From a virus, in the UHGV virus genome UHGV-0212524: a stretch of 64,000 bases of DNA; one strand, 5' to 3'. Of this stretch, positions 3,731-43,297 are shown piece by piece. The notes below the pieces were generated by a model. It had not been told where the DNA came from. It made no database searches and saw nothing but the letters and a program-made list of their open reading frames with translations. The position numbers and the translations under genes are program-made. Within the stretch, counting starts at the first letter, position 1, and each line of letters opens with the position of its first letter.

Positions 3731-4294
3731 GTGGCCACACCATACGTACCTGATTTGAGTCTGACCTCAGCAGAGCTAGTGGTCGCTTTAATCAATCACG
3801 ATAATGGGTTACAGCTTACGCTAAACGAAATACGTATTAGCGGGACCGTAACAAACTCATCTCCAACAACTTCGCGTCGTAACACCATTACCGAAATCAG
3901 TAAAATCAGAAAACCAGATGGTGCGTCTGTTGTGGTTTATTACGACAGACTCGACGCAGATGAAGTATTAACGTATGAACCCATTCTGATTTCGTTAGAC
4001 GGTACTGAAGACAACGTTCGTGACATTCTTAGTGTTGTAAATGAATTCTGCGGAACGAACTTACAACCCGAGGATTTACGTGCTTCAGATATCACTTTAG
4101 GTAACGATCCCATTTCCGTTAACGTTGCCGACGATTCTCCTGCGTGGATGAACGCGTTTATGGTGACGTTGTTTGATACAACCGAACGGGCATTAGCAAA
4201 CGAAGAAGATGCAATCTTCTGTATTGGTGACAATGCCGTTCTTACATTCGAGGTTACAGATGGCGACAGCACTGAAGAAGACGAGACTCCATGA
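3731..4294 (+). CDS. hypothetical protein, PDLSLTS paralog family (upstream flank of adhesin module)
   Basis: 187 aa; N-terminus ...PDLSLTSAELVVALINHD... and YYDRL / CGTNLQPEDL segments paralogous to 13858..14370. Confidence 0.6.
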   Translation: MATPYVPDLSLTSAELVVALINHDNGLQLTLNEIRISGTVTNSSPTTSRRNTITEISKIRKPDGASVVVYYDRLDADEVLTYEPILISLDGTEDNVRDILSVVNEFCGTNLQPEDLRASDITLGNDPISVNVADDSPAWMNAFMVTLFDTTERALANEEDAIFCIGDNAVLTFEVTDGDSTEEDETP

Positions 4295-4721
4295 GCTCGA
4301 AAGCTACGCAGGCACACCGCAGGGCGGGGTACTGCTGTATAGCAAAGACAATAAAGAATATAAAATTGATGTTGATAAGTTAGCCCCGGTTGCGACAGTC
4401 ACCACGGTTAACGGTTCGAATAATGCCGCCACGTTGGATTTCAATACCAGCACTGACATTATTCTGGTGTTAAACGATCCCACTACTACGGTGACGTTCG
4501 CAGCCCTTACTAACGTTGCGGAAAATACCCGTTTCGAAGTAATGCTAACGTTTAAGCAGGGAACAGGGGCGAATAAAGTAACCTGGCCTGAAAACGTTAA
4601 GTGGCCTCACGGTGCAAAACCGGTTTTATCCTACACGGCAAATGCGGAAGACACTCTGTCGCTTTATACCCTTGACGGGGGTGCCACTTGGAAAGGTTCT
4701 CTTCTTGCAGCGGGTTACTAA
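4260..4721 (+). CDS. short fibre-like protein sharing N-terminal anchor motif with the long tail fiber
   Basis: ATG at 4260 with GAGG RBS; N-terminal MATALKKTRLHELESYAGTPQGGVLLYSKDNKEYKI matches N-terminus of 7806..12272. Confidence 0.55.
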   Translation: MATALKKTRLHELESYAGTPQGGVLLYSKDNKEYKIDVDKLAPVATVTTVNGSNNAATLDFNTSTDIILVLNDPTTTVTFAALTNVAENTRFEVMLTFKQGTGANKVTWPENVKWPHGAKPVLSYTANAEDTLSLYTLDGGATWKGSLLAAGY

Positions 4722-7700
4722 ATGAGAAAACATTTTCAGCGTCACGCGATTAGCTACGCGTTATCGTTAGCTTACGGTCACCAATCCTTCGTTACCCGGA
4801 ATACGGGAACGACTAACGACGCACATATCGATCATTACATTCAAAACGAAGAAGGTGTTCTGTCGAATAACCGTCATTTCATCGCTGATACCATGGCGGA
4901 ATACCAACCGAACGGTGACGCAACGACCGAGGGTCAGTCGTTACACATTATCGGTTATTGCCACATGTATATCGCAACAAAAGACGAAAGATGGTTAGAT
5001 GCTGCGAAACACGCCTGGGATGCGTACAACACGTACTTCTACGCCGGACAGCCTATTCCGACAACACCCCAGCGTCGGATTTGTAACTGGTTAGTAAACG
5101 GGAAAGAACCGGTATTAGCACACTATCCTATTCACCCTACGGAACCTACCAACGGCGGGTATAAATGTGTTCCTGTAAGGTTTACAAATGGCCAATGTAA
5201 GATACCGCACGGTGCACCTTTCTGGGGAGAGTATTTGGATATCTGTACGTTTGCATATCGTGGCCACCCTGCCTGGGCCGCGATTAACGCAGATGTACAG
5301 ATTATCAAGGAAGACAAAGAAGGGTCGATTAATTGGGAAGACGTTTTAACTCACGTTATTACTAATCCTGATAAGCCTTACGAAAGCACAGCTTGGGTCG
5401 ATTGGCCAACACTGCTAAATAATACTACAGGTTACACCCCGCTTTGGGGCGGCTCTGCAACAAAAGCTCCTAAACACGACGTTGACTGGATAATTGCCTG
5501 GACGGGTAACAAAATCCAGGATGGTGAAATTATTGAGACGGGATTAGCAGACGCTGATAAAGGTACCGTACAGTTAAAAGACACACAGTTAAACGGTGTC
5601 TATTTAATTAACTACGCGGTAAAACTTCCTGTCGAACACGGCGGTTACGAATTTAAACGTAATGAGCCGTGGCACAACCGTCCGGTCCACACACCGTTCT
5701 TAGGGTCGAAAAACCAATACGGTAACGCCGCTGATGCTGAACTGTGGTTTATCGACGCCTGTTATTTGCTGTGGCGAATCACAGGTGAAGAGAAATACAA
5801 ACAAGCATTAGACTGTGCTTTCTACACCGCACATGAGTACACGTATATTGATGCGACAGATAAATTCTTCCGTCGTTCTACCGCTGCGGATACACCGTTT
5901 ACTGACGGTATTTCGTACGATTTCGATTACCCAGATACCGTAAGTGCCACCTACGGCCGTGATGAGAATGGAGACATTACCATCCACGTGCCTGAAGCGG
6001 CGCAGCACTTTATGGAGCAAAAAGCGGTTAGGTTCAGGATTAACAAAGACTCTAAACTACGTGTCACGTACGGTGGAGTTTGTAAGAATGGCGATCCTGT
6101 CTACTGTAAAGTGATGGTGAACATTAACCCTGCGAAAGCTGATACCGAGGAGGTAAACTGGTACGGTTTAACCTTACCTCGGTCTACGGTAAATACCGTT
6201 AAACAGTACGATGTTGACTTAGGCCAACTTTCCCGTATTACCACCCCAGAAGGGGGAGACTACCTGATAGCTGAAGCCCGTGCGTGTTCGGACTACGGTG
6301 GTTGTACGTGGGAAGAACGTTTTGAGGATAGCATTTACGATGGTCGCGCGGGTACCGTGGTAGAAGCGGAATTTCCTGATGACAGTGCCGGGTTTATTAT
6401 CGGGTTTTGGTTAACCGCTGAAGAGAAGGTAAAACCCGTTTCTATTGTTTACCGTGCAGACGCAGATTTTAACTTGCGTTTAGTCGACAGTGATAACTGG
6501 CTTTGGTGGTGGATGTTACCCAACACAAACAACGAATGGCGTCAGGTAACGTTGAATCCGGATGAAGCCACACTTTCCGGTTATCAGCCAGACCACACAG
6601 ACGCTGACCCTAAACCTTCAGCACCGAATTTCGATAAGGTGGATCAGGTCACGATTCTTCCTGACTCCACAGTTGACCATGCACACTTTGCTTACTATTG
6701 TGTTAACGATGTCCCACCGGTCTTTAATAAAGACGATGGTTATATTTTAACCTTCCGTATTGCCTTACGCGGTGGTGCAGAGTTTGATGCAAAGGTGGGT
6801 GATTGTACGATTGTAGATTACCGATTGGATTCGTTAGCGTACTGTCCGGGTACGATACCGTTCACGAACAGCTACTTAGAAGGTTCAGAACAGTTAGGTG
6901 CTTGGCACGGGATGCCTTATCCAGGTTATCAGTATCCGTTTATGTACAGTATCCACAAAGACGACCGGTATAAGTTGTGGTTAGATAACCAGATTCAATT
7001 CCTGCACGATTCGCAGTTGGCTTACCAACAGCAAATTGGGGAATTAGGACCTGGTTGCGCAGCTTATATCTGGAACCGTTGGGACAACTACAGCTACGGA
7101 GAAGCGGATACCTGGACGACGTTCCATTGGGGTGATGACCATCCTTGGGCAGGGTATCAGCCTCGCGCGTTTCATGCTGCGTGTCGGTGTTGGTACGAAC
7201 TGAAACTGCGAGGTAAAGACGTTCCCGAGGCGTTAACAACCTATATTGACAACTGGGTGAATTGGCTAGGTGGGTTTGTGGATCGGTTTAACGGCCACAC
7301 TCCTAACGAGTTCCCTACAGCACCGGATAAAGCTGTTTGGGTGGAAAACGACTTCACCGCACATATGTGTGGGTTGTGGTTAGCAGGGTGTTGCTGGGCA
7401 TTACTCGCCGGTGCAACGAATCCGAACTACGAAAAAGTGGTTAATGCGGCAATTAAGGAGTTAGGTGAAGGGTTTACGATTACCTCAATTCCGAATAAGC
7501 CGATTAATGGAGCGTGGTCTCCAGCCGCTCGAGAGTCTTCTGATAACGGAATGGCTTATGGGTTCTACACTGGAGAAGTGCTACGTGCGTTAGGTCTCTA
7601 CGTTACTTATAAAACCTACGGACCCAACGCTAATATTTATCGTGACTTAGCGATTACTGACCACAGTCAAGCGGTCTTAGACGTTACGTTAACGATAGAA

Positions 7701-7727
7701 GATGTTCCATTAAAACCGGAGCAATAA
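4722..7727 (+). CDS. large structural protein (1001 aa), function unknown
   Basis: ATG directly abuts upstream stop; Trp/Tyr-rich; sits between fibre-anchor gene and long tail fiber; terminator follows. Confidence 0.6.
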   Translation: MRKHFQRHAISYALSLAYGHQSFVTRNTGTTNDAHIDHYIQNEEGVLSNNRHFIADTMAEYQPNGDATTEGQSLHIIGYCHMYIATKDERWLDAAKHAWDAYNTYFYAGQPIPTTPQRRICNWLVNGKEPVLAHYPIHPTEPTNGGYKCVPVRFTNGQCKIPHGAPFWGEYLDICTFAYRGHPAWAAINADVQIIKEDKEGSINWEDVLTHVITNPDKPYESTAWVDWPTLLNNTTGYTPLWGGSATKAPKHDVDWIIAWTGNKIQDGEIIETGLADADKGTVQLKDTQLNGVYLINYAVKLPVEHGGYEFKRNEPWHNRPVHTPFLGSKNQYGNAADAELWFIDACYLLWRITGEEKYKQALDCAFYTAHEYTYIDATDKFFRRSTAADTPFTDGISYDFDYPDTVSATYGRDENGDITIHVPEAAQHFMEQKAVRFRINKDSKLRVTYGGVCKNGDPVYCKVMVNINPAKADTEEVNWYGLTLPRSTVNTVKQYDVDLGQLSRITTPEGGDYLIAEARACSDYGGCTWEERFEDSIYDGRAGTVVEAEFPDDSAGFIIGFWLTAEEKVKPVSIVYRADADFNLRLVDSDNWLWWWMLPNTNNEWRQVTLNPDEATLSGYQPDHTDADPKPSAPNFDKVDQVTILPDSTVDHAHFAYYCVNDVPPVFNKDDGYILTFRIALRGGAEFDAKVGDCTIVDYRLDSLAYCPGTIPFTNSYLEGSEQLGAWHGMPYPGYQYPFMYSIHKDDRYKLWLDNQIQFLHDSQLAYQQQIGELGPGCAAYIWNRWDNYSYGEADTWTTFHWGDDHPWAGYQPRAFHAACRCWYELKLRGKDVPEALTTYIDNWVNWLGGFVDRFNGHTPNEFPTAPDKAVWVENDFTAHMCGLWLAGCCWALLAGATNPNYEKVVNAAIKELGEGFTITSIPNKPINGAWSPAARESSDNGMAYGFYTGEVLRALGLYVTYKTYGPNANIYRDLAITDHSQAVLDVTLTIEDVPLKPEQ

Positions 7728-7748
7728 TAACCCGCTTATAAAAATGTT

Positions 7749-7780
7749 GGGGGAGGTGCTTTACCTCCCCCAGATCTTTT
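7749..7780 (+). terminator. hairpin terminator
   Basis: GGGGGAGGT..ACCTCCCCC hairpin after the 1001-aa gene; weak T tract. Confidence 0.55.
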
Positions 7781-7805: not shown

Positions 7806-10800
7806 ATGGCTAAAGCGGTAAAGAAAATTCGTTTACACGATTTACGTCCATACACCGGGGATATAGGTGAAGGTGTTTTACTTTTTTCCAAGGATGAGAA
7901 AGATTATAAGTTACCTGTCCGTGAGATCGTTGCAGATATTGACACCGTACGTAATGCGGTGTCTGATGCACAAACAGCAGCAACACAATCACAAGAAGCT
8001 GCAACTCAGGCTACACAAGCAAAGAATTTAGCAGAAACAGCAAAACAACAAACTGACACCGTTGCGGCTACAGTTGCTCAACAAGCGCAAACTGTAACCG
8101 AAAAAGCAACTGAAGTCGGTACAAAACACACTGAAGTGTTAGCCGCGAAAACGGCGGTAGATACCCAGGTTGTGTCCGTTAATGAGAAAGCGCAAGCGGT
8201 AGCGGCAAGCGAGGCCAACGTCACACAAGCGGTGACTACCGTTACGAAGAAAGCAGAAACTGTTGCCACACAAGCCGGTCAAGTCGAACAGTCGCTTACG
8301 GCAGTTAACGAAGCTGTCGCGTCGGTAGAGTCGTCAAAAGCCGCTGTAGAAGCTACAGCAACGCAAGTTACCACAGACAAAGAAACCGCAGAGAATGCGG
8401 CAACGCGTTCTGAGGCAGCGGCTAAGCGTGCAGAAGAAATCGCTGCAAAAGGTAACGTTGATGCAACAACGACCAGTAAAGGTATCGTTAGACTTAATAA
8501 TACCTTAAGCAGTGACTCTGTTACTGAAGCGGCTACGCCGTCAACGGTTAAGCAGTTAAATGAAGATTTGCAGTTAAAAGCAAACCGTCACAACCCAACT
8601 TTTACCGGTGTGGTAAAAGCACCAACACCTGCTTCGGATTCTAACGACACGAGCGTCTCAACGACCGCATGGGTACGGCAAGCGATTGCTGAATTAGTGG
8701 ACTCTTCACCCGAGACGTTAGATACGTTATCAGAAATTGCAGCTGCGTTAGGAAACGATCCTAACTTTGCGACAACGATGACGAACCAACTCGCGGGTAA
8801 ACAGCCGTTAAGTCCGTTACTGACAGCGATTGCCGCAGTCACCACCGCTGCAAACAAACTCCCTTACTTTACCGGTAGTAATCAGGTAGGGTTAGCGGAT
8901 TTCACCTCGACTGCGCGTGATTTGTTAGCGAAAGGGTCGACGGCAGATATCATTAACTTCCTGGGTTTGAAAACCACTGTTGATAAAGCTGCGGGTGCTA
9001 TGCAACGCAGTTCTAACGGTGCCGATATTCCAGATAAAGTCACCTTCGCGAAGAACATCGGGTTGTCAGCAGAGACGTATTTGAAGTTTAATGGGGAAAT
9101 GGCAGTAGATGCGGATATCAACACCTTCGGCCCAGTCGAAGCGTTTATGGGTGTCTGGTCTAAAGCCACGTCTACGAATGCAACAATTGCAAAGAACTTC
9201 CCGGAAGACGATGCAGTTGGTTACTTAGAGGTATTCAAAGCAGGTAACTACAGCGGAAGCCAACGTTTTACCATACGTAACGGTAACGTCTATACTCGTC
9301 GTTTAACAGGAACCTGGAACGGTACTAACGGCCCTTGGTCGCCCTGGAGAATGACAACTACCGCGAACCGTCCGCTCTCCACCACTATTGACCTTAACAC
9401 TTTAGGTGGTGTTGAACACATGGGTCAGTGGCGTAACTCCAGTTCTTCTCTTGCGACGTTCGATCGTCATTATCCCGAAGAAGGTGGTAATGCTCAAGGT
9501 GTATTAGAAGTAATGGAAGGTGGTCTCTACGGACGTATGCAACGTTACACCACTCGTCGTGGTACGATGTATGTCCGTGGGTTGACTGCGACTTGGGATG
9601 CGTCTAATCCACAGTGGGAAGATTGGATTCAAGTTGGGTATCAGGTAGACGGTGCCTACTATAAGGGTAGCTTTAATGACTTAACTAAACCTGGTCGTTT
9701 TAGTGTTACCGGTGAGGCTACTGACGGTCCGTTAACAGACTCTGCTGGCGCAACCTTGTTAGGTGTTTGCGAAGTTACCTTACGCTTAGACGGTTCAGGC
9801 GTTGAACAAAATTATACCACATACGGTACAGGCGCAACTACGAAAGGTCGCAAGTTCCAACGAATTCGTACAGGAAACGCCTGGAGCGAATGGCGAGAGA
9901 TTTTCACATCCTATTCACTCCCGTTGGCTTTAGGGATCGGTGGGGTTGCTGCCAAGGTCGATCCGTTAGACTGGCAAACCTTCGATTTCGTTCCTGGCCA
10001 GATGATAAGTACACCGTTGAATACCATGAAAAACATTCCTGCGGGAATGGATTGGGGTGTTATTGACGGTAACTTGGTCAGTATTCTCGTAGGGGCGTCA
10101 GAGGACACCGGTACTGGTCGGAGTATGTTGGTCTGGCGCGGTACAGTGTCTACTGCTAACTATCGCTTCTTTGCAGTACGTATCGCTGGCGAGAAGGGTA
10201 GCCGTACGATTACGCCACGACAGATGCCTGTGTTGAACGCAGCCCACACTTGGGCAGAGAAACAGACCTTTGCAAAAGGGTTAGCAGGTGAGTTAACCGG
10301 CAATGCTTCAACCGCCACTAAGCTCCAGACTGCGCGTAGAATTGGCGGGGTCGCTTTCGACGGCAGCGGCGACGTTAACCTCCCAGGTGTTAACCAACAA
10401 GGTAATCAAAACACCACAGGTAACGCCGCGACAGCCACTAAACTTCAAACCGCCAGAAATATTAACGGTGTGAAATTCGATGGCTCTGGAGACATCAATA
10501 TCAACACCTTGGTAGGTCGTGGACGGGTTACCGCTCTGACCGGGTCGAACAAGGGTACACCTGGTATCCAGATGTACGAAGTTTACAATAACGGTTATCC
10601 AACCGCCTATGGTAACTTGCTGCACTTAGGTGGTGCTAATGCGCTAGGCGAAGGTGAGTTGTTAATTGGTTGGTCGGGCACGAGTGGTGCACACGCACCC
10701 GTTTATATTCGTAGTCGACGCGATACGGCTGATGCGCCGTGGTCAGATTGGGCACAAGTTTATACTGCCCGTGACAGTATTCCTGGTGTAAATACCACCG

Positions 10801-12272
10801 GTAATCAGGATACTACTGGCAATGCCGCTACCGCGACGAAACTGAAAACCGCTCGCAGAATCGGCGGCGTTACCTTTGACGGTACTGGGGATATCAATTT
10901 ACCGGGGGTTAACCAGCAAGGCAACCAGAATACGACAGGTAATGCAGCGACCGCTACTAAGTTACAAACAGCACGTAAGATCGGCGGTGTTAACTTTGAC
11001 GGTTCGCAAGACATTAGTCTGCCCGGTGTAAACCAGACGGGTAATCAGTCGACTACCGGAAACGCAGCCACGGCAACAAAGTTGCAGACAGCGCGTACCA
11101 TTAACGGTATCGCATTTGACGGTACTAGAAATATATCGTTAGGGCCTGCCGATATAGGTTGTCCGGCTTCGCCCACTGGTTGGTTGGAGACTGGTAAAGA
11201 CGGCGGCGCAATAACTACAGCACAGCTAGTGACGTTATTGCAAAATAACGGCGCGTTTACCACAAAATCATGGGTTGCTCGCTGTGCATGGGCTTATGCT
11301 GCTAGTGCGTCCATACCGAACAGCGAGACGGGTTGTGGTGTTATTCCGTTAGCTGGGGCTGTTATAGAAGTGATTAGTAACAGCGCAAACAACTACACGA
11401 TCCGTATAACGACCCCCACAACGACGAGCGTCGGCGGCGCACTCACTAATGCGGAGTTTATCTACGTAAATAACGGTGATGCTTACTCACCAGGTTGGCG
11501 TCGCGCTTACAATACGAAAAACAAGCCAACTGCTGCGGATGTTGGGGCGTTGCCATTATCTGGCGGTCAATTGAATGGTGTGCTGACGCTGCAAAATGTG
11601 AGTCAGCCTCTCAAGACGCCGGGTGGCGGCATTCTGGCAAATGATGGAAATTTATACATCAATAAGTCAGGATTTGCAGGCTGGATTGATGCGCTGTTTT
11701 TGAAGAACAGCGGCGGTACTGTCACTGGCGATTTAACGGTTAACGGTAAACTGGTTACGAAGTATGCTGATTTCCGAATCGCTTACGGTAGCTGCGGTTT
11801 CATTTTACGTAATGATGGTGCCAATACCTATTTCTTAGTAACCGACTCCGGACAAGCCGCAACGGGTTCCTGGAACGGACTACGTCCGTTGTATTTTAAT
11901 AACTCTAACGGTCAAGTAACCTTTGGTCATAACATTTCTAGCAACGGTAACGGTTCGTTTAACGACGTACAGATTCGTTCTGACCGTCGCAACAAACGTA
12001 ATCTGGTGAAGCTGGATAAGGCTTTGGATCGGTTAGAAGCGCTTACCGGCTATCTGTACGAGGTTCAACATCCAGACGACGGTTGGAACACTTCGGTAGG
12101 TCTAATTGCTCAAGACGCATTAGAAGCGTTACCTGAACTTGTGTCTGAGGATGATGATGCCATTTCAGGCGAAAAACGTTTACGTCTAAACTACAATGGC
12201 GTTATTGCGCTGTTAGTAGAGGGTATGAAAGCGTTGCGTCAAGAGGTTAACGAAATTAAAGGAAGATCCTAA
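7806..12272 (+). CDS. long tail fiber protein with C-terminal intramolecular chaperone (peptidase S74-like) domain
   Basis: 1488 aa; A/T/Q-rich shaft; five tandem ~40-aa fibre repeats (TGNAATATKLQTAR.IGGV.FDGSGD); C-terminal SDRRNK (Ser-Lys dyad spacing) + LDKALDRLEAL. Confidence 0.85.
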   Translation: MAKAVKKIRLHDLRPYTGDIGEGVLLFSKDEKDYKLPVREIVADIDTVRNAVSDAQTAATQSQEAATQATQAKNLAETAKQQTDTVAATVAQQAQTVTEKATEVGTKHTEVLAAKTAVDTQVVSVNEKAQAVAASEANVTQAVTTVTKKAETVATQAGQVEQSLTAVNEAVASVESSKAAVEATATQVTTDKETAENAATRSEAAAKRAEEIAAKGNVDATTTSKGIVRLNNTLSSDSVTEAATPSTVKQLNEDLQLKANRHNPTFTGVVKAPTPASDSNDTSVSTTAWVRQAIAELVDSSPETLDTLSEIAAALGNDPNFATTMTNQLAGKQPLSPLLTAIAAVTTAANKLPYFTGSNQVGLADFTSTARDLLAKGSTADIINFLGLKTTVDKAAGAMQRSSNGADIPDKVTFAKNIGLSAETYLKFNGEMAVDADINTFGPVEAFMGVWSKATSTNATIAKNFPEDDAVGYLEVFKAGNYSGSQRFTIRNGNVYTRRLTGTWNGTNGPWSPWRMTTTANRPLSTTIDLNTLGGVEHMGQWRNSSSSLATFDRHYPEEGGNAQGVLEVMEGGLYGRMQRYTTRRGTMYVRGLTATWDASNPQWEDWIQVGYQVDGAYYKGSFNDLTKPGRFSVTGEATDGPLTDSAGATLLGVCEVTLRLDGSGVEQNYTTYGTGATTKGRKFQRIRTGNAWSEWREIFTSYSLPLALGIGGVAAKVDPLDWQTFDFVPGQMISTPLNTMKNIPAGMDWGVIDGNLVSILVGASEDTGTGRSMLVWRGTVSTANYRFFAVRIAGEKGSRTITPRQMPVLNAAHTWAEKQTFAKGLAGELTGNASTATKLQTARRIGGVAFDGSGDVNLPGVNQQGNQNTTGNAATATKLQTARNINGVKFDGSGDININTLVGRGRVTALTGSNKGTPGIQMYEVYNNGYPTAYGNLLHLGGANALGEGELLIGWSGTSGAHAPVYIRSRRDTADAPWSDWAQVYTARDSIPGVNTTGNQDTTGNAATATKLKTARRIGGVTFDGTGDINLPGVNQQGNQNTTGNAATATKLQTARKIGGVNFDGSQDISLPGVNQTGNQSTTGNAATATKLQTARTINGIAFDGTRNISLGPADIGCPASPTGWLETGKDGGAITTAQLVTLLQNNGAFTTKSWVARCAWAYAASASIPNSETGCGVIPLAGAVIEVISNSANNYTIRITTPTTTSVGGALTNAEFIYVNNGDAYSPGWRRAYNTKNKPTAADVGALPLSGGQLNGVLTLQNVSQPLKTPGGGILANDGNLYINKSGFAGWIDALFLKNSGGTVTGDLTVNGKLVTKYADFRIAYGSCGFILRNDGANTYFLVTDSGQAATGSWNGLRPLYFNNSNGQVTFGHNISSNGNGSFNDVQIRSDRRNKRNLVKLDKALDRLEALTGYLYEVQHPDDGWNTSVGLIAQDALEALPELVSEDDDAISGEKRLRLNYNGVIALLVEGMKALRQEVNEIKGRS
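10296..11160 (+). repeat. in-frame tandem coding repeats (phage tail-fibre repeat units) inside the long tail fiber gene
   Basis: Five degenerate ~120-nt units each encoding TGNAATATKL(Q/K)TAR.I(G/N)G(V/I).FDG(S/T)(G/Q/R)(D/N). Confidence 0.8.
11982..12269 (+). other. predicted autoproteolytic intramolecular chaperone domain (C-terminal 96 aa of tail fiber)
   Basis: Begins at D following Ser in IRS|DRRNK; Ser...Lys spacing of 5 as in S74 chaperone domains; location read from sequence. Confidence 0.6.
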
Positions 12273-13054
12273 TGGCAGTTGTCGGCGTAGGTGGTTGGAT
12301 TGGTTCTTCAGCAAAAGCTGAAACTGGTAACGATTGGATGTCTGGCGCGATGCGCACACTTGGTGTGCCGGTTCCAGGCTGGATGTCGCAATTGGCGGGA
12401 AAATCAAAAGAGGTTCAGTATTCGATCGGGGCTAATCACAATTACAATAAAGATACGCTTATTAACTATTTACGTTCTATAGGCTCTAATGCTGTCGTTG
12501 TGACCATTACAGGGGATTTAGTGTCTTATAGTAGCGGGGTTCCTTGTTTAGAATTCCCTAGCAATCTTCCAAATTCGTATATTACACTCATCATCAATCC
12601 TGGGGTTACAGTATACGGCAGAGGAGGCAACGGCGGTTCTAACTCACCAGGCGGTGCAGGTGGAACCGCAATACAGAACGGAATAGGAAACAGACTGCGT
12701 ATAACCAACCGTGGCGCTATTGCCGGAGGCGGTGGCGGCGGTGGCGGCGGTAACAGGGGTAGACTAATATTTGGTGGTGGCGGTGGTCGCCCATTCGGTG
12801 CTGGTGGGTCTTCCTCACATATGAGTTCCGGTGCAGCTGCTGGTACTATTTCCGCTCCTGGTAGAGGATCTGTTGGTGAGGGGTCTCTTAGTGCATATAC
12901 AGGCGGTTCGGGTGGTAATGTCGGTGCTGCTGGAGGAAGATGTAATACTCATGGTAACGGTACAGAATATAACGGCGGAGCCGCTGGTGCAGCCGTTAGA
13001 GGTAATGCGCCAAGATGGGACGCAGTAGGTGCAATATATGGTTCACGTGTTTAA
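12272..13054 (+). CDS. 38: tail fiber tip adhesin, gp38-like (T2/S16 type) with glycine-rich motifs
   Basis: 260 aa; N-terminus MAVVGVGGWIGSSAKAETGNDWMS and ITGDLVSYS as recalled for T2-type gp38; C-terminal half has multiple poly-Gly motifs. Confidence 0.7.
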   Translation: MAVVGVGGWIGSSAKAETGNDWMSGAMRTLGVPVPGWMSQLAGKSKEVQYSIGANHNYNKDTLINYLRSIGSNAVVVTITGDLVSYSSGVPCLEFPSNLPNSYITLIINPGVTVYGRGGNGGSNSPGGAGGTAIQNGIGNRLRITNRGAIAGGGGGGGGGNRGRLIFGGGGGRPFGAGGSSSHMSSGAAAGTISAPGRGSVGEGSLSAYTGGSGGNVGAAGGRCNTHGNGTEYNGGAAGAAVRGNAPRWDAVGAIYGSRV

Positions 13055-13114: not shown

Positions 13115-13618
13115 ATGGGGGTAGCATCTGGATGGGTCGGTTCTTCGGCCAAGAACGAAACGGGCGAACAATGGATGAGTGCTGCTGGTAGTAAATTAGG
13201 ATTGGGTAGACCTTTTATGATGAGTCAAATGGTGGGCCGATCTCTTGGCTGTAAAATCGCAACTGCTGCATATAGCGATTCAATGGCTAAATTTTGGGGT
13301 GCGGTGGGACCAAACTGGCCGTTAGCGCAGAAAAATAAAGGGACTATTCAGAATCCTGGTAGCTGCGGCGTAGGCACACTTATTGGTATCCAACTACTAT
13401 TGATCACATTGGCTGCTGATGCAAAACCAAGTTTAGCGGTCTATTTACAAGGTGGGAGAGCTTCTAACATCACCGTAAATCTAGGCGGCAACACTTGTAC
13501 GGTAGCCTATCAGCAGGTTATTAATGGTCAACATTATTACTGGACCTCTAACATTAGCACTGCTTTCCAAAACGTGATGAAATCAACCGGCACATTAAGA
13601 GATTTGAAGATTAGTTAA
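13115..13618 (+). CDS. gp38 N-domain paralog with unrelated, non-glycine-rich C-terminal domain
   Basis: 167 aa; N-terminus MGVASGWVGSSAKNETGEQWMSAAG parallels 12272..13054; C-terminal half lacks Gly-rich motifs. Confidence 0.6.
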   Translation: MGVASGWVGSSAKNETGEQWMSAAGSKLGLGRPFMMSQMVGRSLGCKIATAAYSDSMAKFWGAVGPNWPLAQKNKGTIQNPGSCGVGTLIGIQLLLITLAADAKPSLAVYLQGGRASNITVNLGGNTCTVAYQQVINGQHYYWTSNISTAFQNVMKSTGTLRDLKIS

Positions 13619-13639
13619 TAATTTTCAAGCGAATGTGCT

Positions 13640-13900
13640 TGAAAACGTAATCGGGGGGGGGGGTGAAATGTTTTTAGCCACCATTTTATGTCTCCCCAAG
13701 CATAGGAGGTAACCATACGTGGAACATTTCACGCCTGTTTGGGCGTTAACTTAAGTAAAAAACGATCACTCGAATCTGCTATAAAAAGCAATCGGGGGGT
13801 GGTGAAATGTTTATAGACAACTTTTTATGTCTCTCCAATCATAGGAGGTAACCATACGTGGAACAATTCACGCCTGATTTGTCGTTAACTTCACTTAACA
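13640..13900 (+). repeat. ~110-bp tandem duplication (two diverged copies) ahead of 13858..14370, with homopolymeric G tracts
   Basis: 13651..13757 and 13791..13897 align (ATCGGGGGG..GTGAAATGTTT..CATAGGAGGTAACCATACGTGGAAC..); first copy has G11 run and a start remnant that terminates after 11 codons. Confidence 0.8.
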
Positions 13901-14370
13901 TGGTTATTTCACTGGTTAACCATGACCTCCAGCTCGACCTGCAAGAGAACGAGGTTGAAGTCAGCGACGTAAAGACCAGTAACGAAATGGATCGTGACAC
14001 CACTGCTGTTGTAAAGATAAAACGTCCTGGTAACAGAACGTTACAAATCTATTACAACCGTTTAACCGCAGAGCGGTGGTTAAACCAGCAACCTATTCTG
14101 GTAAAGGTTTCCGGTAATGGTTTTACCGCACACGATCTAATCGACGGAATTAACGCGGCTTGCGGTTGTAATTTACAACCCGACGATCTTACCGACGAAT
14201 CATTTACCGTAGGGAAAGACGCTGTAACGTTACAGGTTTCACCCAACTCGTTAGGTTATAAAGGCCAATTCTCCGTTCTGGTTTTCGGTAACGACGAAGA
14301 AGCCGCTGTAGTAAAAGACAACGATTTAATCGTTACCGCAGATAATCGCGTCTTAACCTTTGGTGGTTAA
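13858..14370 (+). CDS. hypothetical protein, PDLSLTS paralog family (downstream flank of adhesin module)
   Basis: 170 aa; GTG start with AGGAGG RBS; N-terminus and YYNRL / CGCNLQPDDL paralogous to 3731..4294. Confidence 0.6.
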   Translation: MEQFTPDLSLTSLNMVISLVNHDLQLDLQENEVEVSDVKTSNEMDRDTTAVVKIKRPGNRTLQIYYNRLTAERWLNQQPILVKVSGNGFTAHDLIDGINAACGCNLQPDDLTDESFTVGKDAVTLQVSPNSLGYKGQFSVLVFGNDEEAAVVKDNDLIVTADNRVLTFGG

Positions 14371-27723: not shown

Positions 27724-28265
27724 TCTTCTTCTCCAACCATACCTAATTCTTGCAGCAAGCCAAAATCAACCAACTGGAAGGTTTCAGAGAGATCGTTTGA
27801 CCACACCACGTTTGCAATGTCGCGTTCTTCATCCGTTAACTGTGGTAACACATTTTCGTTGAACGTCTGATGCTCTACGTAATAAGCATCGTAGATAGAC
27901 GTAGAACGCAAGCAACGGATTGGCAGACGCGGGAAAGACACCGCTAATGCAGCAATAGATGCGCTACTCGGATTCTCCGCAGAATAACGAAGCAATTCGA
28001 TCTTGTGGCGTGGGTAATCCAGTACGCGTTGTTCGAAACCCGGATTACGTTTTTCGATTTCCACAACGGACTCATGGCCTGTCTCTGTACAGTAAACGGG
28101 AATCATCACGTTTAGCCCGTACTTAATCAACAGAGGTTTAATCTCATCTGTAAAGTCTTCACCAGGGATAATGGCGTGAACGTTATAGAGTTTGTGTTTG
28201 CGCAGAAAACGCTCAACCAGGTGGAGTTTACGCTTCGTAAAATTGTGGATCAGAATTGATTTCAT
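27699..28265 (-). CDS. hypothetical protein
   Basis: Start at internal ATG 28265 (GAGG RBS); overlaps the radical SAM gene 3' end. Confidence 0.55.
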   Translation of the reverse strand: MKSILIHNFTKRKLHLVERFLRKHKLYNVHAIIPGEDFTDEIKPLLIKYGLNVMIPVYCTETGHESVVEIEKRNPGFEQRVLDYPRHKIELLRYSAENPSSASIAALAVSFPRLPIRCLRSTSIYDAYYVEHQTFNENVLPQLTDEERDIANVVWSNDLSETFQLVDFGLLQELGMVGEEECLLLTKA

Positions 28266-29562
28266 TATTTGCCTCAGTAGGTTGTGCATTTAACGCACGT
28301 TTAGCTTGCTCACGCTCACGCGTACATTTCGGACAGTAACAAACAGACGAATCGTGCAGTGACGATGCGTGGACGGTGCCTGTACGTTGACGCCAGTATT
28401 CTGCCGCCATCAGTTTTGCGGTCGTCCAACCACATTGACGTCGTTCAGCGTGGTACGCCTTACGGTCTTCCAGTGTCCCTTCACCGTTTTCGTAGGAAGC
28501 AGCTGCACAGCTCCCACAACCGTGTTTCATCGGACAACCTAAGCACGTTTCAGGATAGTTGGTGTATTGCGTCTGAATCTCTTCCAGCAGTTTCCCGCCG
28601 TCTAAGCTAACAAACTCACGACCGACTAACTCAAACACCGCAGAGCGTGACGTTACCGTTGACATGAATCGGTTACAACCATACACCTTACGGTCAAAAC
28701 CTAAACAAGTCATAAACGTCAACGTCCCACAGAACGGACGTAAACGTTCAGGGTTATAACGGTGCGTGTCGTCGTACAGCAGTTTATCACGCCAATCTGG
28801 GTCCCAAATCTGACGGAAATCCAGACCTTCAGGAATGATGTGGGACAACACGTTACGTGGATTGGTGTGCAGCCCTTTCTCAATCCAATAATCCATCACC
28901 TCGATCATCTGCAACGCAATATCCGTTGCCATGCTCCGTGGAAGGATATCTTCGTACGTCACGTTACCCGAAATCGTACCACCACCCGCAATATCGATTA
29001 ACGACTTCATACTCGCCGCGTAATGCGGGAGGGTTTCGGTTGTAAAGGTTGCCTTGATACCCAGTTCAGCAATACCCACTTCTTTTAAGTAGTTATAGCC
29101 ACGAACAGCGGCTTCGTAAGAACCCTGACGCGTCGTGGTAAAGATACGATAACGGTCATGGACTTCTGGCAGCCCGTCGATAGACACACCGATGGAGAGT
29201 TTGTCTTTCCAACGCTCGACGATCTCACGGTTTAACGGACGGTCTAACAACGTCCCGTTCGTGGAGATACTGAACATATACGGTCGATTATGCTCCTTAC
29301 ACAACTGTTCTGCGGTTTCAAACGCCGCTAACAGCAGTTTCGGTTGCATAAAAGGTTCGCCGCCGATGATATCAATAATGACGTCGATGTTCGGAATATC
29401 TTTATCACGCTCAAAACAGGCGTGTAAGAAATCCACGATATCCGCCGCTTTGTTATTACGCGGATACTTACGTTCGTAACAATACTCACAGTCTAAGTTA
29501 CAAGACAGGTTCGTTACCACCTGGTAAGTACGTTGTGAACGTGGTGCTTCATTATTGCTCAT
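28228..29562 (-). CDS. radical SAM enzyme with C-terminal SPASM-like Cys cluster
   Basis: 444 aa; CNLDCEYC (Cx3Cx2C) near N-terminus, GGEP motif, C-terminal CLGCPMKHGCGSC plus further Cys. Confidence 0.8.
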   Translation of the reverse strand: MSNNEAPRSQRTYQVVTNLSCNLDCEYCYERKYPRNNKAADIVDFLHACFERDKDIPNIDVIIDIIGGEPFMQPKLLLAAFETAEQLCKEHNRPYMFSISTNGTLLDRPLNREIVERWKDKLSIGVSIDGLPEVHDRYRIFTTTRQGSYEAAVRGYNYLKEVGIAELGIKATFTTETLPHYAASMKSLIDIAGGGTISGNVTYEDILPRSMATDIALQMIEVMDYWIEKGLHTNPRNVLSHIIPEGLDFRQIWDPDWRDKLLYDDTHRYNPERLRPFCGTLTFMTCLGFDRKVYGCNRFMSTVTSRSAVFELVGREFVSLDGGKLLEEIQTQYTNYPETCLGCPMKHGCGSCAAASYENGEGTLEDRKAYHAERRQCGWTTAKLMAAEYWRQRTGTVHASSLHDSSVCYCPKCTREREQAKRALNAQPTEANNEINSDPQFYEA

Positions 29563-30469
29563 CTTTGCTTATCCTTTTACGCTCTGCATAAATCACGCGT
29601 TTAATGTACTCGTAAGCACCTACCCCGATAGAGCAAGCAAGCTGATTGCACCCACCGTTTAAGATAGCCGGTGCATTCTGAAGCTGATGTTCTGTTCCAT
29701 CTGCGTTCAAATACAACTCTTCGCTACAGACATTACACTCGTTTTCGAAAATCTTGCTGACAGACACGCCGCACGATTCTCCGGTTTGGACGTTCAGCCG
29801 TTCCATATTCTCCTGAATCTTTAAATAACCATAAACGAAGTTCATGATGTGATCGGGAGACAACGGTTTTGGCATTTGGGCATCAAACATCAGAGAAAAC
29901 GCACGGGGACGATAGTGGTACATCGCACGATGTAAATCCACAATATCTTCATACCAGCGCTTATCGGCTAACTGGTCACGCGTAATCACAGCCCAGGTTT
30001 GGAAGTTATCGAGTTCGTATAACGCTTCCAGTGCTTCGTGGCTATCCTCTTCAATAAAGCGCATAAAAGGGCGCTCAGAACGTTTGTAGCCATCAATTGA
30101 TACAAACACATGCTCAAAGTCTTTTAGCAGCGTAAGATGCGATTTACGCAGTTTTAAGCCGTTGGTATACAAGTGATGCTCAAGGTGCGGATGAGACACT
30201 TTCAGTTCGTTAACGAAATCCTCAATCTTACGTTGGACGAGTAGCGGTTCACCACCCGTCCAATGTATTTCCTTAATAGCTGGATTCTCTTGTAGTAATT
30301 CCAGGATACGTTCGCGTTGAAAAGCACGAGACGAATCTTCACGATTCATGTAGTAGGCTCCACCGCAGAAACTACAGTCTAGGTTACACTTAGACGTCGT
30401 AACTACGGACAATATAGTGGGTTTATCGTACAACTTCGTCGAGATCCTGGATTCCACATTGTCTATCAT
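29552..30469 (-). CDS. radical SAM enzyme (second, shorter; possible twitch/partial SPASM)
   Basis: 305 aa; CNLDCSFC (Cx3Cx2C), TGGEPLL, C-terminal Cys (C..CNVC..GGCNQLAC); 11-nt overlap with next gene. Confidence 0.75.
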   Translation of the reverse strand: MIDNVESRISTKLYDKPTILSVVTTSKCNLDCSFCGGAYYMNREDSSRAFQRERILELLQENPAIKEIHWTGGEPLLVQRKIEDFVNELKVSHPHLEHHLYTNGLKLRKSHLTLLKDFEHVFVSIDGYKRSERPFMRFIEEDSHEALEALYELDNFQTWAVITRDQLADKRWYEDIVDLHRAMYHYRPRAFSLMFDAQMPKPLSPDHIMNFVYGYLKIQENMERLNVQTGESCGVSVSKIFENECNVCSEELYLNADGTEHQLQNAPAILNGGCNQLACSIGVGAYEYIKRVIYAERKRISKDEQ

Positions 30470-32581: not shown

Positions 32582-33787
32582 TTATTTCGTACCCGCTTCC
32601 GCCTGTACGTCATCACGAGACGTCAGGTTAGCGTTAACGTGTACTGGGGCCTGAACCACACCACCGTATCTCTTGTGGAGATAACCGGTGTGCGGGTTAT
32701 CTGCCGCGATGTGGTTTTGTAGGTTCTGGTTCGCTTGACTGATTGCGTTCGTGTTATTGTTAACTTGCTGTTTAAGCGCATCCAGGTTCTGTTGTACCTG
32801 ATCGATTTTCTGATCGGTTTCTTGACCCTGTTGCTCTAACGCGGCAACACGCTGAATAACCTGATTCAGTTTTGTGTTTAAATCGTTGATGCTCTTTTGC
32901 AGTTGTAACACTAACGAGTTCAGGTTCGCTAACGCTAAGGCCATTTTCTGGTAGTTTTGAGCAACCACGTTAAGTTGGTCGTTCCACGCTTCCAGAGAGT
33001 TGACAACAGCGTCAATACGCTTACCTAAAGCTTCGTCCGCTTTCTTCAGTGCATTGATTTCCGTAATCGTTGCGTCGATGGCAGACTGGACGTCACGAAT
33101 AAGCGCACGGATTTCAGTTTCTGTTAACCCGTTAACCTGATGAATATCAAGATGGTGAACGTTACCGGTTGCGTTGATGTGTGCATTTAAAGCGTCTAAG
33201 AAGTCATTTTTCAGGCTTTCTAAAATCGCTTTAATGTTCTCTAACTGTACCGCGTCACCGGAACTGATCGCATCTTTAATACCCGCCAATACGGTAATGA
33301 TATATTCAAAACCGTAGATGTCACCCACGTCTTTATACGTCGGTGCAGATGGGAATGTATCCGGTACGTTACGCAGGTCTTTAAACGCAATCGTACGGTT
33401 ATCGAGGTTTAATTCAGCAATCGCCTGTTCGATAGCCACAATGTTCGCAGACTGTGGACCACCAACGACCTGCGCAGATACCGTAATATCTGTTGGAATC
33501 GCTGTGTTAGTGACCACCACCGCCATAACAATCTCGCGGTTTTTAGTCAGCTTTTCATAAGTCGGGTGTGCAAAAATCAACTCATAATCGGTACCACGTT
33601 CGTAGGTTGCATCCGGTCGGTTAGCAACACGTAAACGGAACGTGTCCGCAAAGAACGGGCCGTCAGGAAAAGCAAAAGCACGGTTTACTTTACCTGTACC
33701 TAACGTAATCTGACGCTCTACAGCGTTAGACGTTAGCGAGCCCGTTAAATCTAAAGGATATTGATAAACAATGGAGGCCATGGCCAC
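32582..33787 (-). CDS. tail fibre-like protein with coiled-coil C-terminal half
   Basis: 401 aa; N-terminal FPDGPFF..RLRV....TDYEL module shared with three upstream giants; Q/N/L-rich coiled coil. Confidence 0.7.
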   Translation of the reverse strand: MAMASIVYQYPLDLTGSLTSNAVERQITLGTGKVNRAFAFPDGPFFADTFRLRVANRPDATYERGTDYELIFAHPTYEKLTKNREIVMAVVVTNTAIPTDITVSAQVVGGPQSANIVAIEQAIAELNLDNRTIAFKDLRNVPDTFPSAPTYKDVGDIYGFEYIITVLAGIKDAISSGDAVQLENIKAILESLKNDFLDALNAHINATGNVHHLDIHQVNGLTETEIRALIRDVQSAIDATITEINALKKADEALGKRIDAVVNSLEAWNDQLNVVAQNYQKMALALANLNSLVLQLQKSINDLNTKLNQVIQRVAALEQQGQETDQKIDQVQQNLDALKQQVNNNTNAISQANQNLQNHIAADNPHTGYLHKRYGGVVQAPVHVNANLTSRDDVQAEAGTK

Positions 33788-39008: not shown

Positions 39009-39042
39009 CGTAAAGACTCCTACTTTTAAATAAAATGGATAC

Positions 39043-39064
39043 CCCTCCCCATTACAGGGAGGGG
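39043..39064 (-). terminator. intra-operon hairpin between two giant structural genes
   Basis: CCCCTCCC..GGGAGGGG inverted repeat; T-rich tract follows on the minus strand before the next RBS. Confidence 0.5.
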
Positions 39065-39102
39065 TTACCTACGGACACACAACTGCCCGCAGGCAGCCTG
39101 TC

Positions 39103-43287: not shown

Positions 43288-43297
43288 AAAATTCTCC

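What the first reader, a model, noticed from the sequence alone, without database searches (positions are those of the whole stretch)
11982..13054. Long tail fiber combines a self-cleaving S74-type chaperone domain with a separately encoded gp38-like adhesin
The fibre ends with a 96-aa domain beginning at a Ser-Asp junction with Lys five residues downstream (SDRRNK), as in autoproteolytic intramolecular chaperone domains. The next gene starts at the fibre stop codon and encodes the gp38-like tip. Cleavage would expose the tip for adhesin docking.
Basis: partly seen in the sequence, partly recalled or inferred. Interest (0 to 1): 0.45.

Follow-up and report, generated by a model that had tools for sequence, protein, structure and literature searches.

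The report
Self-cleaving tail fibre with two caps

Summary
The 1488-aa fibre (7806..12272) ends in a Peptidase_S74 intramolecular chaperone (Pfam 1.6e-10) with the motif IR^SDRRNK. The next gene overlaps the fibre stop (TAATG) and is a full gp38 adhesin (PF05268 3e-69; S16 gp38, 6F45_D, 3e-50).

The mechanism is supported by homology, but it is not a new combination. Chaperone cleavage followed by gp38 capping is documented for S16, T2, T6 and RB49. In about 60 loci I fetched, every Gp38_N gene lies 3-90 nt after such a chaperone.

Three things are new:
- The host genome is an undescribed jumbo phage, a distant SPN3US/phiEaH2 relative found in Salmonella assemblies.
- A second adhesin gene (13115..13618, 167 aa) has the same Gp38_N docking domain but a different head with no solved structural relative.
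- In nine related loci the small adhesin is always present and gp38 is optional. It is absent in four and carries an in-frame deletion in one.

Both genes are under purifying selection. Most likely one fibre takes either of two caps; this is inferred, not shown.

The parts
7747..7773 (.). Strong terminator-like hairpin (12 bp, matches on both strands) between the upstream 1001-aa tail protein gene and the fibre gene. It marks the start of the fibre-adhesin unit.
   Evidence: No comparably strong + strand terminator-like site lies between the fibre, gp38 and second adhesin genes; only weak 5-7-pair consensus matches inside the coding sequences.
7806..12272 (+). Tail fibre gene, 1488 aa (157 kDa precursor, 146 kDa after predicted cleavage). 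It is a mosaic of P1/P2/Mu S-like and Goslar-like shaft segments.
11709..11894 (+). Gp34_trimer-like trimerisation domain (fibre residues 1302-1363), just before the tip.
   Evidence: Pfam PF21446, E 2e-16. PDB matches to T4 gp34 and Mu protein S.
11946..11978 (+). Pre-cleavage tip motif GNGSFNDVQIR (residues 1381-1391). This is the predicted new C-terminus and adhesin docking end.
   Evidence: Conserved in Gp38_N-coupled fibres of T4-like, Stx, SSU5-like and jumbo phages. The motif is associated with a downstream Gp38_N gene: 8/9 against 1/71, Fisher p 2.8e-9.
11979..12269 (+). Peptidase_S74 intramolecular chaperone domain, 97 aa, 10.9 kDa. Catalytic Ser1392 is at codon 11979-11981 and Lys1397 at codon 11994-11996. 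Predicted cut is R1391^S1392.
   Evidence: Cleavage position by analogy with S16 (PMC7917993).
12272..13054 (+). gp38-type adhesin, 260 aa, 25% Gly. It has a Gp38_N docking domain (residues 1-42; W9, W22, W37) and a glycine-rich head (residues 47-260). Its ATG overlaps the fibre stop codon (TAATG).
   Evidence: About 80% nucleotide identity to RB49/JSE gp38. dN/dS 0.17-0.40.
13115..13618 (+). Second adhesin, 167 aa, not in the finding. It has a Gp38_N docking domain (residues 1-40; W7, W20) and a confidently modelled beta-sandwich head (residues ~46-167) with no solved relative. It has its own RBS 60 nt after gp38.
   Evidence: Present in all nine related loci, and directly after the fibre stop in four of them. 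dN/dS 0.07-0.28.

Best explanation
This is a T2/S16-type 'capped' tail fibre carried by a jumbo phage.

Proposed steps, all inferred from homology:
1. Three copies of the 1488-aa fibre protein trimerise from the C-terminal end, guided by the S74 intramolecular chaperone.
2. The Ser1392/Lys1397 dyad then cuts each chain between R1391 and S1392, releasing a 10.9-kDa fragment.
3. The new end (…GNGSFNDVQIR) is capped by one monomeric adhesin, which plugs in through its about 40-residue Gp38_N domain. The adhesin's head binds the host receptor.

Shown by sequence: the phage encodes two such caps behind the fibre gene. One is a glycine-rich gp38 (12272..13054), translationally coupled to the fibre. 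The other is a smaller beta-sandwich adhesin (13115..13618).

Inferred from comparative genomics: the small adhesin is the resident partner of this fibre, and gp38 is a recently acquired, optional cassette. Both are kept by selection. The likely outcome is that each fibre tip carries one or the other, giving the virion two receptor specificities.

The confidence of 0.6 is for the whole statement. The chaperone-cleavage-then-cap architecture alone I rate at about 0.85, and the two-caps-on-one-fibre part at about 0.45-0.5.
For: Chaperone:
- Pfam S74 at 1.6e-10, above the cutoff.
- Alignment to S16 gp37 6F45_A through the cleavage motif and the whole domain.
- S, D and K(+5) invariant in 11 diverse homologues. 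The profile also reaches the GA-1 (3GUD) and MYRF (7DC3) chaperones.

gp38:
- PF05268 3e-69 plus Gp38_N and 6F45_D 3e-50 over residues 7-258.
- TAATG overlap with the fibre stop.

Coupling rule:
- In all of about 60 fetched loci that hold a Gp38_N ORF, a chaperone ends 3-90 nt upstream.
- Among 80 independently sampled chaperone-bearing fibres, the tip motif N[DN]VxI[RT]^SD goes with a downstream Gp38_N gene in 8/9 cases, against 1/71 without the motif (p 2.8e-9).

Second adhesin docks on this fibre:
- It has a Gp38_N domain (3.8e-20).
- In L006, L038, L039 and L040 it starts 3-4 nt after the stop of a near-identical fibre, with no gp38 present.
- In Stx phages a chaperone 79% identical to this one is followed only by its 58%-identical homologue.
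- Two records deposited under the same name (Escherichia phage CMS-2020a, SSU5-like) carry either gp38 or the small adhesin after their chaperone-ended fibre.

Both genes functional: dN/dS is 0.17-0.40 for gp38 and 0.07-0.28 for the small adhesin.

gp38 recent and optional:
- dS between the window and L004 is 0.10 for gp38 against 1.08 for the small adhesin.
- gp38 is absent in 4 of 9 related loci and carries an in-frame deletion of about 47 aa in L005.
- The last ~10 codons of the chaperone differ between loci with and without gp38, consistent with a recombination joint.

Literature: chaperone cleavage then gp38 capping in S16, T2, T6 and RB49 (PMC7917993; PMC9569957; PMC3157838; bioRxiv 10.64898/2026.05.12.724579).
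Against: - Nothing here shows cleavage or binding; all of it is homology and gene context.
- No multimer model could be run, so the fit of either Gp38_N domain to this tip is untested. The tip is a Gp34_trimer-like domain, not the S16 beta-helix sequence.
- The small adhesin has Met where the third Trp prong sits (PFMMSQM against PGWMSQL).
- Only 64 kb of a roughly 220-kb genome is visible. A second chaperone-bearing fibre elsewhere could be the partner of one adhesin. In RB49, gp38 works although it is encoded 55 kb from gp37.
- Simultaneous use of two caps has no experimental precedent that I could find.
Confidence: 0.6

Rival explanations
The small adhesin is the real tip. gp38 would be a recently acquired passenger that is poorly used or on its way out, or the reverse: gp38 has taken over and the small adhesin is a relic.
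For: gp38 is missing in 4 of 9 related loci and has an in-frame deletion in L005. Its low dS suggests recent arrival. Most known phages with this design have a single Gp38_N gene.
Against: Both genes are intact in the window and in four related loci (L004, L007, L008, L041). Both show purifying selection (dN/dS 0.07-0.40). gp38 is translationally coupled to the fibre. The small adhesin is never lost and keeps its own RBS. Its head has diverged into two alleles about 62% identical while the N-terminal 45 aa stay constant, as expected of an adhesin in use.
Confidence: 0.2
2. The two adhesins serve two different fibres. One caps this fibre. The other caps a second chaperone-bearing fibre encoded outside the 64-kb window.
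For: Only about a quarter of the genome is visible. Jumbo phages often carry several receptor-binding proteins. A gp38 gene need not sit next to its fibre, as in RB49.
Against: tblastn finds no second chaperone and no third Gp38_N anywhere in the window. The other large ORFs have no S74 hit. Both adhesins sit directly behind the same fibre in six loci (the window, L004, L005, L007, L008, L041). Each type is the sole partner of equivalent fibres in other phages. Both tip types (A and B) in this clade are followed by both adhesins.
Confidence: 0.15
3. The C-terminal domain is not removed, and the downstream gene acts as a folding helper like T4 gp38 or Mu Tfa rather than as a retained adhesin.
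For: Phage tail fibre genes are often followed by assembly chaperones. The related Goslar fibre is followed by a Caudo_TAP assembly protein.
Against: The downstream proteins match the adhesin families (PF05268, PF21721), and the Pfam and PHROGs scans returned no match to Caudo_TAP or any assembly-chaperone family. The Ser/Lys dyad and the whole S74 domain are intact and conserved. The homologous S16 complex is solved with gp38 bound to cleaved gp37 (6F45).
Confidence: 0.03

Closest known systems
Salmonella phage S16 gp37-gp38 long tail fibre tip (PDB 6F45; Dunne et al. 2018)
   Same: A C-terminal chaperone cut before an SDRRxK motif, followed by a separately encoded gp38 with a Gp38_N Trp-prong domain and a glycine-rich head. 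Both proteins match at sequence level (6F45_A 4e-14, profile 6.5e-27; 6F45_D 3e-50).
   Different: S16 is a T4-like phage with a four-protein fibre (gp34-37). Here the fibre is one 1488-aa mosaic protein in a jumbo phage. The segment before the cut is Gp34_trimer/Mu S-like rather than S16-like, and the tip motif is FNDVQIR rather than RDLNVS. A second adhesin gene follows.
T2/T6 and RB49-like (Krischvirus) gp37 + gp38
   Same: Proteolytic removal of the gp37 C-terminus, then gp38 capping (PMC3157838, PMC9569957). RB49 gp37 ends GRNGSFNDVYIR^SDARLK, the same tip motif as here. The window's gp38 is about 80% identical in DNA to RB49/JSE gp38.
   Different: RB49 encodes gp38 about 55 kb from gp37. 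The small ORF after its gp37 is not a Gp38_N protein. One adhesin only.
Short-tailed Stx phages (P13374 ORF65/ORF66, phi191, 75/02 Stx) and SSU5-like phage-plasmids (SSU5, CMS-2020a)
   Same: A fibre ending in a chaperone (79% identical to this one in the Stx phages), followed by a small Gp38_N adhesin 58-62% identical to the window's second adhesin.
   Different: One adhesin per genome. The two CMS-2020a records fetched carry gp38 in one and the small type in the other, never both. I found no experimental work on the small adhesin.
Edwardsiella phage PEi20/PEi26 (Kanagawavirus) tandem 'gene 38' pair
   Same: Two Gp38_N genes in tandem directly after a chaperone-ending gp37. An IMG/VR relative, L077, has the same layout.
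   Different: Both copies are of the small type, in a T4-like phage. They are annotated only as 'assembly catalyst'; I found no functional study.
Endosialidase K1F C-terminal intramolecular chaperone (MEROPS S74) and phage T5 pb1
   Same: The same self-cleaving chaperone family with a Ser-Lys dyad (Pfam PF13884). T5 and K1F are cited as chaperone examples in PMC7289586.
   Different: In those proteins the mature fibre or spike itself binds the receptor. No separate cap is added.
Jumbo phage Goslar tail fibre (Goslar_00090) with Tfa
   Same: Homologous shaft (about 50% identity over fibre residues 248-1112) in the same gene neighbourhood of a jumbo phage.
   Different: The Goslar fibre has a P1 S-like end and a Caudo_TAP assembly protein, not a chaperone plus Gp38_N caps. 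The distal module has been swapped.

Membership tests
Peptidase S74 / C-terminal intramolecular chaperone domain (PF13884) | Significant match to the family model above the curated threshold | tested here: met
   41.5 bits against a cutoff of 22, E 1.6e-10, residues 1392-1446. A profile of 11 homologues hits the solved chaperones 6F45_A, 8JOV, 7DC3 and 3GUD.
Peptidase S74 / C-terminal intramolecular chaperone domain (PF13884) | Catalytic Ser with Lys five residues downstream (S-D-x-R-x-K) | tested here: met
   S1392-D-R-R-N-K1397. S, D and K are invariant in alignment A2 and align with the same residues of the solved chaperones.
Peptidase S74 / C-terminal intramolecular chaperone domain (PF13884) | Located at the extreme C-terminus of a trimeric fibre or spike, directly after a trimerisation element | tested here: met
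   It forms the last 97 of 1488 residues and is preceded by Gp34_trimer (1302-1363).
Peptidase S74 / C-terminal intramolecular chaperone domain (PF13884) | Autocatalytic release after trimerisation | not testable with these tools
   Needs expression with SDS-PAGE or mass spectrometry. Predicted products are 146.3 kDa and 10.9 kDa.
gp38 adhesin of T2/S16 type (PF05268 + PF21721) | Full-length match to the GP38 head and the Gp38_N docking domain | tested here: met
   PF05268 3.1e-69 (profile positions 1-218 of 218) and PF21721 1.5e-15. 6F45_D 3.3e-50 and PP01 gp38 9V85 2.8e-38.
gp38 adhesin of T2/S16 type (PF05268 + PF21721) | N-terminal Trp 'prongs' and glycine-rich motifs separated by variable segments | tested here: met
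   W9, W22 and W37 align with the S16 Trp residues. Gly makes up 25% of residues, and the GGGGGGG and GGGGGRP runs are conserved. Among relatives the variation is concentrated between the Gly runs (L041).
gp38 adhesin of T2/S16 type (PF05268 + PF21721) | Encoded directly after a chaperone-ending fibre | tested here: met
   TAATG overlap. The same layout holds in about 60 loci.
gp38 adhesin of T2/S16 type (PF05268 + PF21721) | Binds the cleaved fibre tip as a monomer and binds a host outer-membrane receptor | not testable with these tools
   No multimer modelling or experiment was available. Inferred from 6F45 and the literature.
Small Gp38_N adhesins (phrog_1121; Stx-phage 'tail fibre adhesin') | Gp38_N domain plus a non-glycine-rich head of about 120 aa, encoded directly after a chaperone-ending fibre | tested here: met
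   PF21721 3.8e-20 and phrog_1121 7.7e-46 over the full length. The head models as a beta-sandwich with pLDDT 85-95. In relatives it starts 3-4 nt after the fibre stop.
Small Gp38_N adhesins (phrog_1121; Stx-phage 'tail fibre adhesin') | Demonstrated receptor binding | not testable with these tools
   I found no experimental report for any member and no solved relative.
Tail fibre assembly chaperones (T4 gp38 / Mu Tfa, Caudo_TAP PF02413) | Match to Caudo_TAP or a T4 gp38-type chaperone | tested here: not met
   Neither downstream protein has such a hit. The Goslar homologue does have one.

The most novel reading that the evidence does not exclude
One fibre, two interchangeable caps. After the chaperone is cut off, each trimeric tip of this jumbo phage's fibre accepts either the glycine-rich gp38 or the small beta-sandwich adhesin through their shared Gp38_N plug. 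A single virion would then carry a mixture of two receptor specificities. The gp38 cassette would be a mobile add-on that has recently spread among related jumbo phages by recombination inside the conserved chaperone coding region. This would be a simple, portable way to widen host range, and I found no paper describing it.
Probability: 0.45. Interest if true: 0.55.

Novelty: new member of a known kind. Interest (0 to 1): 0.3.

Why it matters
As written, the finding re-discovers the standard T2/S16-type fibre tip, so it adds no new mechanism.

Two points have modest value:
- The chaperone-plus-Gp38_N module is not confined to T4-like phages. It has been grafted onto the single-protein fibre of an SPN3US-like jumbo phage, where the relative Goslar uses a Tfa-type end instead. 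It also occurs on Stx podophages and SSU5-like phage-plasmids. This supports treating it as a portable host-range cassette, with a recognisable tip signature (…FNDV[YQ]IR^SD) that predicts an external adhesin.
- The natural presence/absence polymorphism of gp38 next to an always-present small adhesin gives a ready-made test of whether one fibre can carry alternative caps. That question is relevant to engineering phage host range against Salmonella.

The small adhesin's head domain is a structurally uncharacterised receptor-binding fold.

Tried and rejected
- Is this a known phage? Megablast of the locus and of two other 16-20-kb stretches found no close isolate. The only matches were about 74% identity over 6-20% of the query to SPN3US/phiEaH2-like jumbo phages, plus gp38 alone at about 80% to RB49-like phages.
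- Exact-sequence look-up of the second adhesin: not on record. A 99% relative led to Salmonella assemblies.
- Does RB49 also have a hidden second Gp38_N gene, the 'small ORF' after gp37 noted by Trojet et al.? I fetched and translated it, and it is unrelated.
- A second chaperone-bearing fibre or a third Gp38_N gene in the window: none by tblastn. No S74 hit in the other large ORFs.
I reused those 80 loci for the tip-motif association test instead.
- Literature on two gp38-type adhesins on one fibre, on jumbo-phage gp38, or on Stx/SSU5 small adhesins: nothing relevant.
- A complex model (3 fibre tips + 1 adhesin) could not be run, because the structure tool takes single chains from the window only.
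- Promoter and terminator scans gave no signal above background inside the fibre-gp38-adhesin unit.
Full report
**1. What is in the sequence**

The interval lies at the end of a 1488-aa ORF (7806..12272, + strand). PHROGs and tblastn identify this ORF as a mosaic tail fibre. Its shaft segments resemble P1 and P2 fibres, Mu protein S and the fibre of jumbo phage Goslar.

Pfam places a Gp34_trimer domain at residues 1302-1363 (2e-16). It places Peptidase_S74 at residues 1392-1446 (1.6e-10, 41.5 bits against a cutoff of 22).

The motif is …GNGSFNDVQIR-SDRRNK…. The Ser is residue 1392 (codon 11979-11981) and the Lys is residue 1397. Counted from the Ser, the domain is 97 aa and 10.9 kDa, and the mature fibre would be 146 kDa.

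The fibre stop TAA (12270-12272) shares its last base with the ATG of the next ORF, with a Shine-Dalgarno-like AAAGGAAG upstream.

That next ORF (12272..13054, 260 aa, 25% Gly) is a complete gp38 adhesin:
- PF05268, 3.1e-69, over the whole model.
- PF21721 Gp38_N, 1.5e-15.
- S16 gp38 (6F45_D), 3.3e-50, and PP01 gp38 (9V85), 2.8e-38.

**2.

The last 145 residues of the fibre align with S16 gp37 (6F45_A). The alignment runs through the cleavage motif (S16 …DLNVS^SDRRIKK) and the whole chaperone (phmmer 4e-14; profile 6.5e-27).

A profile of 11 diverse homologues also reaches three other solved chaperones: a phage fibre (8JOV), human MYRF (7DC3) and the GA-1 appendage (3GUD). In each, the S-D-x-R-x-K residues align. 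S, D and K(+5) are invariant in that alignment.

The literature describes the mechanism directly:
[quoted passage not shown] The cut falls before the Ser (PMC7917993).
- T2/T6 processing is summarised in PMC3157838 and in a 2026 preprint.

My own survey agrees. In every one of about 60 fetched loci that hold a Gp38_N ORF, a chaperone ends 3-90 nt upstream. These loci come from T4-like phages, Stx podophages, SSU5-like phage-plasmids and jumbo phages.

The 'combination' is therefore the rule, not an exception.

**3. A tip signature that supports docking here**

The residues just before the cut, (G)NG(S/N)FN(D/N)V(Y/Q)IR, are shared by several fibres whose upstream sequence otherwise differs completely. 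These are this fibre, RB49 gp37, the Stx-phage and SSU5-like fibres, and both fibre-tip types of this phage's relatives.

I tested the association in 80 chaperone-bearing fibre loci sampled from IMG/VR. The motif N[DN]VxI[RT]^SD goes with a downstream Gp38_N gene in 8 of 9 cases. Without the motif the figure is 1 of 71, and that one case is the near-variant NDTYIR (Fisher p 2.8e-9).

One of the two search patterns was motif-based. That enriches the motif class but does not create the association with the downstream gene. The window's fibre carries the signature, which independently supports the idea that its cleaved end is an adhesin docking site.

**4.

Sixty bases after gp38, with its own RBS, lies a 167-aa ORF (13115..13618).
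- Its first 40 residues are a Gp38_N domain (3.8e-20), including W7 and W20. Met replaces the third Trp.
- The full-length protein belongs to phrog_1121, 'tail fiber adhesin' (7.7e-46).
- Its head domain has no sequence match in the PDB.
- An AlphaFold2 model is confident for residues ~46-167 (block pLDDT 75-95, mostly above 85) and shows a beta-sandwich. The docking domain is low-confidence, as expected for a domain that folds onto a partner.

**5. Comparative genomics**

No close isolate exists in the phage collection. The window is a distant relative (about 74% over short stretches) of SPN3US/phiEaH2-type jumbo phages. It carries their paralogous giant virion proteins and radical-SAM gene pair.

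Nine related loci were recovered:
- Five from IMG/VR (L004-L008), four of them on contigs of 151-225 kb and one (L006) on a 5.9-kb fragment.
- Four from sequencing runs and assemblies. Source names on the matching proteins are Salmonella Chester and Typhimurium.

All share the gene order 1001-aa tail protein (where the locus reaches that far upstream), fibre(S74), [gp38], small adhesin, DUF7941 protein.

| Locus content | Loci |
|---|---|
| Small adhesin present | All nine, plus the window |
| gp38 intact | Window, L004, L007, L008, L041 |
| gp38 with an in-frame deletion of about 47 aa | L005 |
| gp38 absent; small adhesin starts 3-4 nt after the fibre stop | L006, L038, L039, L040 |

Further observations:
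- Two unrelated tip-plus-chaperone types occur in the clade: …FNDVQIR^SDRRNKRNL… and …FNDVYIR^SDARLKSNF…. Both are followed by both adhesins.
- Outside the clade, Stx phages have a chaperone 79% identical to this one, followed only by the small adhesin (58% identical).
- Two records of the SSU5-like phage-plasmid CMS-2020a carry gp38 in one and the small adhesin in the other, in each case directly after a chaperone-ended fibre.
- The homologous fibre of jumbo phage Goslar ends with a Tfa-type assembly protein instead.

Selection:
- Both genes are under purifying selection: dN/dS 0.17-0.40 for gp38 and 0.07-0.28 for the small adhesin.
- The small adhesin keeps an almost invariant N-terminal 45 aa, while its head has split into two alleles about 62% identical.
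- gp38 is far less diverged at synonymous sites than its neighbour. For the window against L004, dS is 0.10 against 1.08.
- The last ~10 codons of the chaperone differ between loci with and without gp38 (…ALRQEVNEIKGRS against …LRRELKELKEK).
- Together these indicate that the gp38 cassette spread recently by recombination within the chaperone coding region.

**6. Most likely mechanism**

Inferred from homology: trimerisation is guided by the chaperone. Self-cleavage follows at R1391^S1392, releasing a 10.9-kDa piece. The new end is then capped by one adhesin monomer through Gp38_N.

Inferred from gene context: the small adhesin is the resident cap of this fibre and gp38 is an optional second cap. 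Each tip would therefore carry one or the other.

Nothing here demonstrates cleavage, binding or co-occurrence in virions.

Rivals:
- Only one cap is really used (0.2).
- The two caps serve two fibres, the second encoded outside the window (0.15).
- A non-cleaving domain with a chaperone-like downstream gene (0.03). The family assignments contradict this.

**7. Comparison with what is known, and novelty**

The element is a member of Peptidase S74 by every sequence-testable feature, and the next gene is a gp38 adhesin. Autocleavage and binding cannot be tested with these tools.

Tandem Gp38_N genes already exist in public genomes of PEi20-like T4-type phages, where both copies are of the small type and are annotated as 'assembly catalyst'. 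I found no paper on two Gp38_N adhesins sharing a fibre, on gp38 in jumbo phages, or on the small adhesin's function.

**Verdict**

The finding is a new member of a well-known kind. The dual-cap reading is a plausible, testable variant (probability about 0.45).

Interest is 0.3. It is not negligible, because of the jumbo-phage context, the portable tip signature and the natural gp38 presence/absence series.

Noticed in passing
window 13613-13898: A tandem duplication of about 140 nt (13655-13759 and 13794-13898, 87% identical, plus a weaker 49-nt flank) covers the 5' leader, RBS and first codons of the DUF7941 gene (13858..14370). The first copy leaves an 11-codon remnant ORF. It may be a scar of cassette exchange at the right edge of the fibre-adhesin module.
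   Followed up: partly
window 4209-4721 versus 7806-7980: The 170-aa 'tail fiber protein' ORF probably starts at its Met18, about 4260. It shares an N-terminal domain of about 55 aa (49% identity, E 2e-12) with the 1488-aa fibre. This suggests a short and a long fibre that use the same attachment site.
   Followed up: partly
window 3731-4294 and 13858-14370: Two DUF7941 'virion structural protein' paralogues (about 35% identical) bracket the tail-protein/fibre/adhesin block.
   Followed up: no
window 4722-7727: A 1001-aa tail protein (phrog_2871, E 0) sits directly upstream of the fibre. It has a weak sub-threshold GH76-like hit (18 bits against a cutoff of 25.9). It is conserved in relatives and in Goslar, and may be a second, enzymatic receptor-binding protein.
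   Followed up: no
window 33822-47620 (- strand): Three adjacent, mutually related giant virion structural proteins (1727, 1393 and 1439 aa) and a fourth related 400-aa protein at 32582..33787. None has a Pfam domain. This is typical of SPN3US-like jumbo phages.
   Followed up: no
window 28228-30469 (- strand): A pair of radical-SAM proteins. This is the stretch best conserved with SPN3US-like phages, at about 74% DNA identity.
   Followed up: no
L005 5340-5978: In this 225-kb relative the gp38 gene has an in-frame deletion of about 47 aa between two GGAGG-encoding repeats. It removes the central glycine-rich part of the head. The protein may be defective, or it may be a shortened adhesin.
   Followed up: partly
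L004 4770-4826, L008 5145-5202, L041 7141-7198: In relatives with the second tip type, the fibre and gp38 are separated by about 55 nt holding a perfect GC-rich hairpin (TCAGTGAGGGG…CCCCTCACTGA). There gp38 starts with TTG and has a different first 8 residues. This is a different expression arrangement from the TAATG overlap in the window.
   Followed up: no
L074 2816-3295: A fibre on a 222-kb IMG/VR contig has the same …NGSFNDVQIR^SD tip motif but is followed by a 160-aa ORF that my Gp38_N model does not recognise. It may be a further, divergent cap family.
   Followed up: no
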